NCBI GenBank assembly: GCA_965207575.1
Contig: OZ242288.1
Location: 3,929,879 to 3,993,878 of the forward strand
Direction: 5' to 3'
DNA length: 64,000 nt
Source of the DNA: an uncultured Candidatus Binatia bacterium
Lineage (GTDB): Bacteria; Desulfobacterota; Binatia; Bin18
Position 1 is the first letter of the stretch, and every line of letters begins with the position of its first letter. A program made the translations under genes and the position numbers. The notes below the pieces were generated by a model that was not told the DNA's origin, did not search any database, and saw only the letters and a list, made by a program, of their open reading frames with translations. Positions 13,234 to 14,268 of the stretch are shown piece after piece.

Positions 13234-14268
13234 TTAATCGGCTTCCTCATCCGGCCACGGCCGGATGCCAAACGGCAGACGGGTGCGGCGCAGAGAGAGG
13301 CCCTGCTTAATCTGTCGGACGCGGCGGTTGATTACGCTCTGAGCCAGGATATTCTTGGCGTCGAGCAGTTTTTCAAAGGCGGCCAGCCAGCTCTCATAAT
13401 AGATTGGTCTTGTCTCGGTCGGCTGCCGGTCCGCACTGGTAATCTCGGCAATCAATCGCTCCTGAAACTCGGGCCAGGCATAATGACCCTGTTCGCATAG
13501 GGCGACCCCCAGGGCAAACGCAATGCCTTCCCACGGGTCCTGGAACTGGAGTTCGCCGCTCCGCCGGGGCAGAGCGGCAGGACCCTGCATGTCAGAGACG
13601 TGTCTCTGGGAAAGGCCGGGCTGTTGCTGTTTCTCAGGCTCGACCCGCGCCACTCCAATCATCGCGTCCCGCGTGACAATAGCCGTGAGCTCATCGAGCG
13701 TCATCTGCTCCGTACCGGCCGGTCGCTCCGGCAGGACCATATAGCGGGTCTGGAAAGTACTGTTCCAGACCTGAATCTGGATGTTTTCGTCCAGCTCAAG
13801 CCCGAACTCCCGAAGCACCTCGCGCGGCCGGCCGGTGACTCTGGAGCGATACGACTGGCTCTTATACCAGAACGGCGGCAGACCCAGGACCGGCCAGGGG
13901 TAGCATGAGCATAAGGCACAGACGATCACGTTATGCGTCTGGGGCGTATTCTCGACCACGACCAGATGCTCGCCCTGCAAGCCGCCAAGGCCCAGCTCGG
14001 CTATGGCGGCGGTGCCATTCTCGAGCAGACGGACCTTATAGGCGAGGTCCGTCCAGGCCCGGGCAACCACCCGGCAGCCGTTCAGCGGCCCGATATCGTT
14101 TTCATACGAGTCCAGAACGGTATCGAGCAGTGCGCTGGAAACGAAAGTTTTCTCGGTCAGCAGGGCTTCGGTCGCCTTGACCCGAATCTCGCGTTCGCGG
14201 TTCTGGTCGGGCGTCAACTGACGCTGCTGAAAGGCCGCGCCGGTATCATGTTCGTGAGCATCACTCAT
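13234..14268 (-). CDS. nitrile hydratase alpha subunit fused to the N-terminal domain of the beta subunit (NHase/thiocyanate-hydrolase-like)
   Basis: 344 aa; [31 protein letters not shown] is the NHase alpha metal-binding CxLCSC signature; residues ~215-344 ([16 protein letters not shown]...[10 protein letters not shown]...[20 protein letters not shown]) match the NHase beta N-terminal domain; GAGGAGG RBS. Confidence 0.7.
   Translation of the reverse strand: [344 protein letters not shown]

What the first reader, a model, noticed from the sequence alone, without database searches (positions are those of the whole stretch)
13234..14268. Single-polypeptide nitrile hydratase: alpha subunit fused to the N-terminal half of the beta subunit, with no beta C-terminal domain or activator nearby
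The 344-aa ORF carries an intact NHase alpha metal centre ([29 protein letters not shown]). It then continues without a stop into a region that parallels the NHase beta N-terminal helical domain (FxxPWExxxFAL...EFxxRIxxEI...YYExWLxAxExLLxxKxIL). Canonical NHases are two separately encoded subunits. Thiocyanate hydrolase splits beta into two genes, and the only fused forms I know of are eukaryotic beta-alpha order. An alpha-then-beta(N) fusion lacking the beta C-terminal barrel domain, with no accessory/activator gene adjacent, is unusual. Its neighbours are an LLM oxidoreductase upstream and a convergent CoA-transferase. It may be a diverged nitrile, thiocyanate or related C-N-hydrating enzyme. 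An Arg within the stretch [14 protein letters not shown] could supply the beta-subunit Arg needed for catalysis.
Basis: partly seen in the sequence, partly recalled or inferred. Interest (0 to 1): 0.7.

Follow-up and report, generated by a model that had tools for sequence, protein, structure and literature searches.

The report
Nitrile hydratase alpha fused to activator
This gene is a real, widely conserved natural fusion of the metal-binding alpha subunit of nitrile hydratase to its own maturation helper (the "activator"), not to half of the beta subunit, and it nearly always sits in genomes without a beta-subunit gene beside it, a gene layout I did not find described in the literature I could search.

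Summary
The 344-aa ORF (13234-14268, minus strand) is real. Residues 26-207 are a full Co-type NHase alpha subunit with an intact C-A-L-C-S-C metal site. The C-terminal domain is the NHase activator (NhlE/NhhG/P14K type), not half of beta. It passes the curated accessory-protein model (69 bits, cutoff 46) and fails the beta model (29 bits, cutoff 152). It scores 118 vs 33 bits on activator vs beta-N HMMs and has Gln at the catalytic beta-Arg position. So the "missing" activator is built in.

The fusion is not an artefact. More than 100 protein clusters (59-97% identity) share it, and the 36 family members in my tree form one clade.

Fused genes are almost never next to a beta gene: 2 of 13 lineages, and none in this 64-kb window. 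Canonical alpha genes had a beta in the locus in 31 of 31 cases. Three canonical active-site-shell hallmarks are lost or switched, including an invariant Asp-to-Asn change.

Most likely it is a self-maturing alpha-activator unit working without a canonical beta. A cobalt or holo-alpha donor for NHases encoded elsewhere is a serious rival. It is a new variant of a known kind, of moderate to high interest.

The parts
13234..14268 (-). Whole ORF, 344 aa: NHase alpha subunit fused to an NHase activator (accessory/epsilon) domain
   Evidence: Single ORF. Pfam NHase_alpha plus NHase_beta_N. NCBIfam TIGR01323 274 bits (cutoff 250) and TIGR03889 69 bits (cutoff 46). Same architecture in at least 120 clusters.
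14278..14284 (-). Shine-Dalgarno-like GAGGAGG, 9 nt upstream of the ATG
   Evidence: Read directly from the sequence.
14227..14268 (-). N-terminal His-containing segment (residues 1-14, MSDAHEHD...). H5 and H7 are nearly invariant, and the segment is expanded to long His/Asp/Asn tracts in some relatives. It may help capture metal (inference).
   Evidence: Alignments A1 and A3. pLDDT below 50.
13648..14193 (-). NHase alpha domain (residues 26-207)
   Evidence: PF02979 E 3.7e-81. 55-59% identical to solved Co-type alpha chains. 66 canonical invariant positions are retained.
13903..13920 (-). Metal-binding motif C117-A-L-C120-S121-C122. All three Cys and the Ser are present, but the canonical Thr is replaced by Ala.
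   Evidence: Sequence. Cys residues are invariant in 107 family members. Thr is 100% conserved in 119 canonical alphas but variable (A/V/T) in the fused family.
13762..13764 (-). Asn169, the family signature (VWNS). It is Asn in all fused sequences and Asp in all canonical alphas. [quoted passage not shown]
   Evidence: PMC9465369. Residue mapping from the alignment.
13573..13647 (-). Inter-domain linker (residues 208-232), predicted disordered and variable in length, with a conserved R222..D226-M227-x-G229 patch
   Evidence: pLDDT below 50 at 215-239. Whole-codon indels and conserved positions.
13282..13572 (-). Activator (epsilon; NhlE/NhhG/P14K-type) domain, residues 233-329, predicted as four helices. 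Motifs: LPRxSGELxFQDPWEG, EFQxRLI, YYExWL.
   Evidence: TIGR03889 above cutoff. Activator HMM 118.5 bits vs beta-N HMM 32.9 bits. 40% identity to the Rhodococcus accessory protein. All residues conserved in free activators are retained. The fold matches the beta N-domain and SCNase beta.
13234..13281 (-). C-terminal tail (residues 330-344 plus stop) with an acidic end (PDEEAD), clade-specific
   Evidence: Alignment A1. pLDDT below 50.
14408..15778 (-). Upstream same-strand neighbour: luciferase-like monooxygenase (456 aa). A recurrent neighbour of the fusion, but the functional link is uncertain.
   Evidence: PF00296. Orthologues beside the fusion in L081 (96%), L083 (83%) and L086 (43%, different gene order), weaker in L087 (31%). 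Caveat: at least 5 LLM paralogues in this window alone.
15833..16639 (-). Upstream same-strand neighbour: alpha/beta-hydrolase (268 aa), paired with the LLM in relatives
   Evidence: PF00561/PF12697. Orthologues in L081, L083 and L086, weaker in L087.
11960..13195 (+). Convergent neighbour: family-III CoA-transferase (411 aa), conserved only among close relatives
   Evidence: PF02515. 90-94% orthologues in L081 and L083 only.

Best explanation
SHOWN: the ORF encodes one polypeptide. It consists of a complete Co-type nitrile hydratase alpha subunit (metal ligands C117, C120, S121, C122 intact), a disordered linker of about 25 residues, and then a bona fide NHase activator domain of the NhlE/NhhG/P14K 'self-subunit-swapping chaperone' family, which is itself a distant homologue of the beta N-domain. 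The protein belongs to a large family found in uncultured bacteria (Binatia, Methylomirabilota, and a gammaproteobacterial context). The family is monophyletic in my sample. Its members have left the canonical beta-alpha-activator operon and almost never have a beta gene at their locus. INFERRED mechanism: the tethered activator docks on its own alpha domain where the beta N-domain would sit. The beta-R18/alpha-E146 salt-bridge pair of the P. thermophila enzyme is conserved here as R235/E154. The activator then promotes cobalt insertion and oxidation of C120 and C122 in cis. This gives a covalent 1:1 counterpart of the alpha-(activator)2 maturation intermediate of canonical NHases. I think the resulting holo alpha-activator unit is most likely the working end product: a self-maturing hydratase that acts without a canonical beta subunit, with the activator domain serving as a permanent beta-N stand-in. 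Its substrate is unknown (a nitrile or a related C-N compound), probably within the catabolic gene neighbourhoods where it sits (LLM plus alpha/beta-hydrolase here, Amidohydro_3 and glyoxalase-fold genes in other clades). Confidence that it is an alpha-activator fusion is about 0.95. Confidence that it works independently of beta is 0.45.
For: Identity.
Real and conserved: at least 120 clusters; 107-sequence alignment with invariant Cys ligands; the 36 fused sequences form one clade with no canonical alpha inside it (NJ tree without support values).
Detached from beta:
- 39 fused loci with about 399 kb of flanking DNA were examined.
- Beta is present in 2 of 19 well-flanked loci, or 2 of 13 lineages at 80% identity.
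- All 31 canonical loci with enough upstream sequence have a beta in the locus.
- There is no beta or second alpha in the 64-kb window.
- Free activators are linked to alpha/beta in about 92% of canonical loci, so a dedicated chaperone would be expected to stay linked.
Altered beta-facing and active-site shell:
- Canonical Thr118 (100%) and Arg166 (92%) are relaxed, and Asp169 (100%) is switched to Asn (100%).
Alpha otherwise under nearly full canonical constraint: 66 of the 71 positions conserved at 90% or more in canonical alphas are retained. This argues against a mere metal-carrying dummy.
The activator domain is under tighter constraint than free activators at matched alpha divergence: 51% vs 37%, and 58% vs 44%. 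This fits a permanent partner.
It keeps the aromatic residues shared with the beta pocket (F268, Y290, Y291, W294).
Precedent: an alpha subunit alone can be catalytically active and fully modified (Chem Rev PMC11672702).
An activator tethered to the C-terminus of alpha is compatible with an active enzyme (engineered beta-alpha-P14K, PMC4709657).
Recurrent catabolic neighbours across rearranged contexts.
Against: - The non-covalent alpha-(P14K)2 complex of P. putida holds cobalt (0.91 mol/mol) but has zero NHase activity (PMC3511329 Table 2).
- The activator domain lacks both beta arginines that hydrogen-bond the oxidised cysteines. The beta-R52 equivalent is Gln269, and there is no beta C-domain and so no R157 equivalent.
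- Relaxation of the strictly conserved Thr in C-T-L-C-S-C could mean that catalytic constraint has been lost.
- Some fusion-bearing genomes do encode NHase beta and alpha elsewhere or next door (L088, L096, and the P0077/P0297 contig).
- Neighbour conservation is modest, and these genomes are rich in LLM and amidohydrolase paralogues.
- The AF2 models have moderate confidence (pLDDT 71-73.5, pTM 0.60-0.63) and the tool returned no coordinates or PAE, so intramolecular docking is not shown.
- Whole genomes could not be searched.
Confidence: 0.45

Rival explanations
1. Trans-acting maturation module. The alpha-activator fusion is a self-contained cobalt-loading unit, a covalent version of the alpha-(activator)2 mediator. 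It is catalytically silent and donates cobalt, or less likely its holo-alpha, to a conventional NHase (beta plus alpha) that is encoded elsewhere and lacks its own activator.
For: - Direct biochemical analogy: alpha-(P14K)2 is cobalt-loaded and inactive, and it activates apo-NHase (PMC3511329). It can pass cobalt directly to a subunit-fused NHase (PMC4709657; PMC7193024).
- In L088 a two-gene beta-alpha NHase with no activator lies about 0.65 kb upstream of the fusion. A relative probably repeats this: P0098 and P0124 share a contig length of 3500.
- L096 has a beta-N/beta-C/alpha set without an activator about 2 kb from the fusion.
- On one 5,537,650-bp contig the fusion (P0077) and an activator-less split NHase (P0297) co-occur 0.58 Mb apart.
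- Only about 8% of canonical loci lack an activator. Two adjacencies in 19 loci is far above random placement in a genome.
- The His-containing N-terminus, expanded to His/Asp tracts in some members, resembles Ni/Co metallochaperone tails (the resemblance is from my own knowledge).
- Relaxed Thr118 and the D169N switch could tune metal release.
Against: - 11 of 13 lineages show no beta or alpha client within reach, and this window has none in 64 kb. Real activators are almost always co-operonic with their client.
- Two of the three co-occurrences involve three-part NHases. That type also lacks an activator where no fusion is in view (L176), and one such enzyme was reported to mature without one (AnhDEA, PMC7329996).
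- The alpha domain retains 66 of 71 canonical invariant positions, more than a pure metal carrier should need.
- None of the other ten Mb-scale fusion-bearing contigs appeared among the top 120 relatives of the L088 beta or the L096 alpha. This is weak evidence because only 120 hits are listed.
Confidence: 0.3
2. Ordinary catalytic alpha subunit of a conventional heteromeric NHase whose beta gene has simply moved elsewhere in the genome. The stop codon between adjacent alpha and activator genes of a beta-alpha-activator operon was lost, and the tethered activator is displaced by beta after cobalt loading.
For: - The fusion is colinear with adjacent nthA and accessory genes of beta-alpha-activator operons.
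- The alpha domain reaches the equivalog cutoff of TIGR01323.
- Engineered beta-alpha-P14K fusions are fully active.
- At least one genome has beta genes elsewhere.
Against: - The beta sets found near or alongside fusions always come with their own, different alpha (about 50% identical), so they are not orphan betas.
- Canonical invariants on the loop facing the beta C-domain are lost (R166 relaxed, D169N fixed).
- The family is old and monophyletic and is consistently unlinked from beta. That is atypical for subunits of an obligate heteromer, where 31 of 31 loci are linked.
Confidence: 0.12
3. One reading: alpha fused to the N-terminal half of the catalytic beta subunit (an SCNase-like split beta, minus the C-terminal barrel), with a tail arginine replacing the beta Arg.
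For: - Pfam NHase_beta_N matches residues 227-320.
- The predicted four-helix domain superposes on the beta N-domain and on SCNase beta.
Against: - The beta model scores far below cutoff while the accessory model is above cutoff.
- The margin in favour of activator over beta-N is 86 bits.
- Gln sits at the beta-Arg52 position and there is no HDxGG motif.
- True split beta-N proteins (L096, L172) look different ('VHDRGG...ELRRAIE') and score as beta-N.
- The proposed Arg-rich tail is not conserved in the family.
Confidence: 0.03
4. Assembly or sequencing artefact: a frameshift or lost stop codon joins separate alpha and accessory genes.
For: Alpha and accessory genes are often adjacent or overlapping in canonical operons.
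Against: - The same fusion occurs in at least 120 independent protein clusters from many assemblies and sources, down to 59% identity.
- It appears in 39 fetched loci.
- The linker varies by whole codons.
- There are family-specific substitutions in both domains.
Confidence: 0.01

Closest known systems
Alpha-(activator)2 maturation mediator of Co-type NHases (Rhodococcus rhodochrous NhlA-NhlE2 / NhhA-NhhG2; Pseudomonas putida alpha(P14K)2)
   Same: The same two protein families are together: a Co-type alpha subunit bound to a small beta-N-like activator. The window's C-terminal domain is 40% identical to the accessory protein of a Rhodococcus nthB-nthA-accessory cluster and keeps all residues conserved among free activators. 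The expected chemistry is activator-dependent Co insertion and Cys oxidation in alpha (PMC3511329).
   Different: - Here the two are covalently joined 1:1 in one gene, rather than a transient 1:2 complex of separate gene products.
- No beta and no client alpha are in the operon.
- The alpha carries N169 instead of the universal Asp, and a relaxed Thr118.
- The known complex is an inactive intermediate, whereas this one is a stable, anciently conserved protein.
Engineered subunit-fusion NHases of P. putida: (beta-alpha)P14K and (beta-alpha-P14K) (Xia et al. 2016, PMC4709657)
   Same: The activator is tethered to the C-terminus of alpha, the order that gave the highest activity in the engineered series. 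This shows that such tethering is compatible with cobalt loading.
   Different: The engineered proteins contain a full beta subunit and are artificial. The natural family has no beta at all in the polypeptide and usually none at the locus.
Canonical bacterial Co-type NHase operons (beta-alpha-activator or alpha-beta-activator)
   Same: The alpha domain reaches the equivalog cutoff and is 55-59% identical to solved Co-type alphas. The domain order alpha then activator is colinear with beta-alpha-activator operons.
   Different: Canonical loci have three separate genes, and a beta was present in all 31 loci where it could be checked. The fused family has lost that linkage.
Eukaryotic fused NHase (Monosiga brevicollis type) and three-part NHase-family enzymes (thiocyanate hydrolase, ToyJKL, AnhDEA; also L096, L172 and L176 here)
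   Same: These are precedents that NHase modules can be fused or split. ToyJ-type alpha alone can be active and fully modified. The beta-N half can double as a chaperone in AnhDEA.
   Different: The eukaryotic fusion is beta then alpha, with a complete beta and no activator. The three-part enzymes split beta into N and C halves that are both present and keep the catalytic Arg. This protein has neither a beta-C domain nor the Arg.

Membership tests
NHase alpha subunit (TIGR01323 / PF02979) | Profile match above the curated cutoff over the full domain | tested here: met
   TIGR01323 274.2 bits vs cutoff 249.85, residues 26-209. PF02979 271 bits vs cutoff 27.2.
NHase alpha subunit (TIGR01323 / PF02979) | Metal-binding motif C-x-L-C-S-C with three Cys and the Ser | tested here: met
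   C117-A-L-C120-S121-C122. The Cys residues are invariant in 107 relatives.
NHase alpha subunit (TIGR01323 / PF02979) | Co-type signature V-C-T-L-C-S-C-Y (Thr and Tyr; Fe-type has Ser and Thr; from established knowledge) | tested here: inconclusive
   Tyr123 is present. Thr is replaced by Ala, and the position is A/V/T across the family but Thr in 100% of 119 canonical alphas. The metal is probably Co but is not established.
NHase alpha subunit (TIGR01323 / PF02979) | Universally conserved Asp in the V-W-D-S strand next to the active site | tested here: not met
   Asn169 in all fused sequences vs Asp in 119 of 119 canonical alphas.
NHase alpha subunit (TIGR01323 / PF02979) | Encoded next to, and assembling with, a beta subunit | tested here: not met
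   No beta in the 64-kb window. Beta is at the locus in 2 of 13 fused lineages vs 31 of 31 canonical loci. Assembly itself cannot be tested here.
NHase alpha subunit (TIGR01323 / PF02979) | Nitrile hydration activity | not testable with these tools
   Needs biochemistry.
NHase accessory protein / self-subunit-swapping chaperone (TIGR03889; NhlE, NhhG, P14K) | Profile match above the curated cutoff | tested here: met
   TIGR03889 69.2 bits vs cutoff 46, residues 242-311 covering model positions 1-71 of 74.
NHase accessory protein / self-subunit-swapping chaperone (TIGR03889; NhlE, NhhG, P14K) | Resembles activators more than beta N-domains | tested here: met
   An HMM of 107 free activators gives 118.5 bits and an HMM of 99 beta N-domains gives 32.9 bits, with controls correct. 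40% vs 22% identity to the Rhodococcus accessory protein vs beta.
NHase accessory protein / self-subunit-swapping chaperone (TIGR03889; NhlE, NhhG, P14K) | [quoted passage not shown] | tested here: not met
   It is fused in frame to alpha, and there are no beta or alpha structural genes at the locus.
NHase accessory protein / self-subunit-swapping chaperone (TIGR03889; NhlE, NhhG, P14K) | Binds alpha and enables Co insertion and Cys oxidation | not testable with these tools
   Inferred only. The R235/E154 pair matches the beta-R18/alpha-E146 salt bridge of PtNHase (PMC7587978; alignment by hand).
NHase beta subunit (TIGR03888 / PF21006 + PF02211) | Full-length profile match above cutoff | tested here: not met
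   TIGR03888 29.3 bits vs cutoff 152.2, and only model positions 10-98 of 226 are matched.
NHase beta subunit (TIGR03888 / PF21006 + PF02211) | C-terminal SH3-like domain (PF02211) | tested here: not met
   Absent from the ORF and from the window.
NHase beta subunit (TIGR03888 / PF21006 + PF02211) | Catalytic Arg of the N-domain (Pt beta-R52 / Fe-type beta-R56) and the N-terminal HD(L/V)GG motif | tested here: not met
   Gln269 aligns with the Arg. The position is Q/H/C/R across the family. There is no HDxGG motif.
Thiocyanate-hydrolase-like or three-part NHase (split beta) | Separate beta-N and beta-C genes accompanying alpha | tested here: not met
   None in the window. Genuine split sets (L096, L172, L176) look different and score as beta-N.
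NHLP-type RiPP precursor (TIGR03793) | Short peptide consisting of an alpha-like leader followed by a core peptide | tested here: not met
   The marginal hit (52.1 bits vs cutoff 50.9) reflects shared ancestry with alpha. This is a full-length alpha with an intact metal site.

The most novel reading that the evidence does not exclude
The family is a beta-less, self-maturing single-chain metallo-hydratase. The maturation chaperone has been permanently recruited as the second half of the active site, and a remodelled second shell (D169N, loss of the Thr and Arg hallmarks) goes with a substrate or reaction different from classical nitrile hydration. Alternatively, and equally new, it is a dedicated 'dummy alpha' cobalt carrier that services NHases in trans.
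Probability: 0.45. Interest if true: 0.75.

Novelty: new variant of a known kind. Interest (0 to 1): 0.58.

Why it matters
How the small activator protein gets cobalt into NHase alpha and triggers cysteine oxidation is still unresolved. Recent reviews call the molecular details 'largely lacking' (PMC11672702). No chain named as an activator or accessory protein appeared among the solved structures matched to this protein by sequence or by fold.

A natural, stable, 1:1 covalent alpha-activator protein is a ready-made object for crystallography or cryo-EM and for spectroscopy of that elusive intermediate.

If the protein is active without beta, it would be a compact one-gene, self-activating hydratase. 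That would be attractive for biocatalysis, where co-expressing alpha, beta and an often poorly expressed activator is a known nuisance (PMC3680314, PMC4761151). It would also revise the view that beta arginines are indispensable.

The family is abundant in soil and sediment metagenomes from poorly known phyla. Its sources label it 'nitrile hydratase' or 'nitrile hydratase subunit alpha' where they name it at all, so annotation-based surveys of nitrile metabolism would score it as a conventional enzyme.

Tried and rejected
1. Frameshift or stop-loss artefact: rejected because the fusion is conserved in at least 120 clusters and 39 loci.
That sequence then served only as a jackhmmer seed, which recovered about 100 genuine betas from fetched loci as positive controls. 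The resulting HMM still found no beta in the window.
3. Judging intramolecular docking by structure prediction: two AF2 runs (29 and 107 sequences) gave pLDDT 71-73.5 and pTM 0.60-0.63. No coordinates or PAE were returned, so docking could not be assessed. Foldseek against the PDB only confirmed the alpha fold and a beta-N-like helical domain. The afdb50 library was unavailable.
4. Whole-genome presence of beta: this cannot be done with these tools. As a workaround I matched 'longest_contig' lengths between hit lists. That gave one solid co-occurrence (5,537,650 bp), one probable (3,500 bp), and one coincidence that I checked and rejected (16,173 bp; L176 has no fusion).
5. The statistical argument 'activator-less neighbours, p about 0.006': I weakened it after seeing that three-part NHases lack activators even without a fusion in view, and that such enzymes were reported to self-mature.
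6. Inferring the substrate from neighbours: the LLM, alpha/beta-hydrolase, CoA-transferase, Amidohydro_3 and glyoxalase-fold neighbours all fall below every curated NCBIfam cutoff, and the genomes are paralogue-rich. No conclusion.
7. Cobalt-linked riboswitch, or any Rfam family in the window: none. The promoter/terminator scan was at background level.
8. NHLP RiPP precursor reading: rejected (see the membership test).
9. Literature: no paper in the searchable library describes a natural alpha-activator fusion, and the 2020 review lists six gene organisations without it. Searches for the role of Pt alpha-Asp161 and Ser162 found nothing.
10. Plasmid collection: only canonical separate genes among the hits shown.
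Full report
**1. The observation**

Window 13234-14268 holds one uninterrupted 344-aa ORF on the minus strand. 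A GAGGAGG ribosome-binding site lies 9 nt upstream of the ATG. The quoted metal-centre sequence is there: C117-A-L-C-S-C122, nt 13903-13920. Pfam places NHase_alpha at residues 26-207 (E 3.7e-81) and NHase_beta_N at 227-320 (E 1.2e-7). The alpha part is 48-59% identical to solved Co-type alpha chains.

**2. What the second half is**

NCBIfam separates what Pfam lumps together.
- Residues 242-311 match TIGR03889, 'nitrile hydratase accessory protein', at 69.2 bits (cutoff 46). The beta model TIGR03888 reaches only 29.3 bits (cutoff 152.2) and matches only its first 98 positions.
The window's C-terminal domain scores 118.5 vs 32.9 bits.
- A Rhodococcus accessory protein (107.8 vs 46.1) and Rhodococcus beta-N (59.0 vs 120.3) sort correctly.
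- Head to head with an annotated Rhodococcus rhodochrous nthB-nthA-accessory-Co-transporter-amidase cluster, the domain is 40% identical to the accessory protein (E 2e-20) and 22% identical to beta (E 0.01).
- Where beta has its catalytic Arg ('QFRGAM'), the window has Gln269 ('EFQERL'), like the accessory protein ('EFQSRL').
- All positions conserved among free activators are kept: P234, R235, F242, W246, F251, W265, L272, Y290, Y291, W294, E299.

The protein is therefore alpha fused to its activator.

**3. Real, old and widespread**

A search of 5.8 billion proteins returns at least 120 clusters at 59-97% identity. All are about 330-430 aa and all carry both Pfam domains.
- In a 107-sequence alignment the three Cys ligands and 60-odd other positions are invariant.
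- The linker differs by whole-codon indels.
- On an NJ tree of 155 alpha domains (no bootstrap support computed), the 36 fused sequences form one clade with no canonical alpha inside it. This points to one ancient fusion event.
- Named members or contexts come from Candidatus Binatia (L001), Methylomirabilota and a gammaproteobacterial context (the neighbouring beta's closest named relative is Porticoccaceae).
- No plasmid hit shown carries the fusion. The window's own organism was not identified. Its exact protein is not on record, and the closest is 97% identical (P0001).

**4. Detached from beta**

I classified every fetched locus with alpha, activator and beta HMMs.
- Of canonical loci with a free-standing activator and enough upstream sequence, 31 of 31 have a beta in the locus.
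- Of 39 fused loci (about 399 kb of flanks), beta is present in 2 of the 19 with at least 1 kb on both sides. That is 2 of 13 lineages at 80% identity.
- The window has no beta and no second alpha in 64 kb.

The exceptions are informative.
- L088 has a two-gene beta-alpha NHase without an activator 0.65 kb upstream of the fusion.
- L096 has a split beta-N/beta-C/alpha set without an activator 2 kb away.
- By matching contig lengths I also found that the 5,537,650-bp contig carrying fusion P0077 encodes a split, activator-less NHase 0.58 Mb away.

So fusion-bearing genomes are not necessarily beta-free. However, every beta seen comes with its own, different alpha. The three-part type also lacks an activator where no fusion is in view (L176), and one such enzyme is reported to self-mature (PMC7329996). 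The 'client NHase' argument is therefore suggestive, not compelling.

**5. Family-specific changes**

The fused alpha keeps 66 of the 71 positions that are conserved at 90% or more in canonical alphas. Three hallmarks next to the metal site are not kept.
- The Thr of C-T-L-C-S-C (100% in canonical) is A/V/T.
- Arg166 (92% in canonical) is variable.
- Asp169 (100% in canonical) is Asn in every fused sequence.

By the alignment, Asn169 corresponds to G. pallidus alpha-D168. [quoted passage not shown] Loss of the Arg and Asp on a beta-facing loop fits an alpha that no longer meets a canonical beta.

The fused activator domain is more conserved than free activators at equal alpha divergence: 51% vs 37% at 55-65% alpha identity, and 58% vs 44% at 65-75%.

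R235 and E154 correspond to the beta-R18/alpha-E146 salt bridge of the P. thermophila enzyme (PMC7587978; my alignment). This suggests the activator docks where beta-N would. That is an inference. The AF2 models (pLDDT 71-73.5, pTM 0.60-0.63) came without coordinates and cannot show it.

**6. Context**

The arrangement alpha/beta-hydrolase, then LLM, then fusion is conserved in close relatives. It recurs with a different gene order in L086, where the LLM is 43% and the hydrolase 38% identical.
- An unbiased clustering of flank ORFs also finds a roughly 575-aa protein, annotated Amidohydro_3 where gene calls exist, near the fusion in 10 loci from at least 3-4 lineages.
- It finds a glyoxalase-fold gene just upstream of the fusion in 5 closely related loci.
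- A Mo-hydroxylase set recurs in four contexts.
- None of these neighbours reaches a curated family cutoff.
- The window alone has at least five LLM paralogues, so these links are weak.
- There is no cobalt transporter, signature amidase, aldoxime dehydratase or riboswitch nearby among the genes checked.

**7. Mechanism**

Shown: domain identities, conservation, monophyly in my sample, detachment from beta, and the altered second shell.

Inferred: the tethered activator loads cobalt and enables Cys oxidation in cis. This would give a covalent 1:1 version of the alpha-(activator)2 intermediate.

What happens next is open.
- For a beta-independent enzyme: the loss of linkage, when real activators stay with their clients in about 92% of loci; the near-complete retention of canonical alpha constraints; the tighter constraint on the activator domain; and the precedent of an active alpha-only NHase.
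- Against it: alpha-(P14K)2 holds cobalt but has zero activity, and both beta arginines are missing.
- For a trans-acting cobalt or holo-alpha donor: that same biochemistry, plus the three co-occurrences with activator-less NHases.

**8. Novelty**

The 2020 NHase review lists six gene organisations: alpha-beta-activator; beta-alpha-activator; alpha-beta-gamma-activator; alpha-activator-beta; fused beta-alpha; solo-subunit. None is this one. Alpha-activator tethering appears in the searchable literature only as an engineered construct that also contains beta, and no search found a natural case. Where sources name these proteins they call them 'nitrile hydratase' or 'nitrile hydratase subunit alpha'. 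I rate it a new variant of a known kind, of moderate to high interest. It offers a natural stable form of the elusive alpha-activator complex, and possibly a one-gene, self-activating hydratase.

Noticed in passing
L096 5016-6405 (-); L172 7503-10630 (+); L176 8769-10126 (+): A family of three-part NHases (separate beta-N of about 100 aa with VHDRGG...ELRRAIE, beta-C of 94 aa, and an alpha of 209-235 aa with VCTLCSCYPRALLG), named in Binatia and 'Deltaproteobacteria' MAGs. No activator gene is nearby. In L172 the beta-N and beta-C genes are separated by an epoxide hydrolase and a DUF29 gene.
   Followed up: partly
L083 and L084 14612-14773 (+): A 54-aa ORF that is a fragment copy of the fusion's alpha domain (…[19 protein letters not shown]…). 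It lies about 3.5 kb from the intact gene, next to an amine oxidase. It is probably a pseudogene remnant of a duplication; the gene caller had labelled it NHase_alpha.
   Followed up: partly
window 11227-11741 (-): A small two-gene pair (66 aa and 105 aa, overlapping by 4 nt) that looks like a VapBC-type toxin-antitoxin module, inserted between the LLM (10065-11102) and the CoA-transferase. It is absent at the corresponding place in L081.
   Followed up: no
window 4581-5678, 10065-11102, 14408-15778, 42973-43986, 44048-44941: At least five luciferase-like monooxygenase paralogues in 64 kb, together with two Amidohydro_2, one Amidohydro_3, TauD, a phosphotriesterase-family protein and hydantoinase A/B. 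The region is a paralogue-rich catabolic island, so neighbourhood arguments here need caution.
   Followed up: partly
window 19939-23599 (+) and 27293-29281 (+), 5775-8108 (+): Three different molybdenum or tungsten enzymes within 25 kb: a xanthine-dehydrogenase-family hydroxylase (FAD_binding_5 and MoCoBD subunits), an aldehyde:ferredoxin oxidoreductase, and a bis-PGD molybdopterin oxidoreductase. The hydroxylase set is a recurrent divergent neighbour of the fusion (L081, L083, L089).
   Followed up: partly
P0082, P0087 (N-termini); P0036 (C-terminus): Some family members expand the N-terminal MSDxHxxxH motif into tracts of about 20-30 residues rich in His, Asp and Asn. P0036 ends in a poly-Glu/Asp tail of about 25 residues. 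These may be metal-capturing appendages.
   Followed up: no
window 13234-14268 (-), residues 137-194: The alpha domain marginally passes the NHLP RiPP-leader model TIGR03793 (52.1 bits vs cutoff 50.9). Full-length alphas can therefore trip that model.
   Followed up: yes
L009 (Ruegeria sp. THAF57) 9234-10933 and 19339-20857: Two complete canonical NHase operons (beta-alpha-activator and alpha-beta-activator orders) lie within 10 kb of each other on one contig.
   Followed up: no
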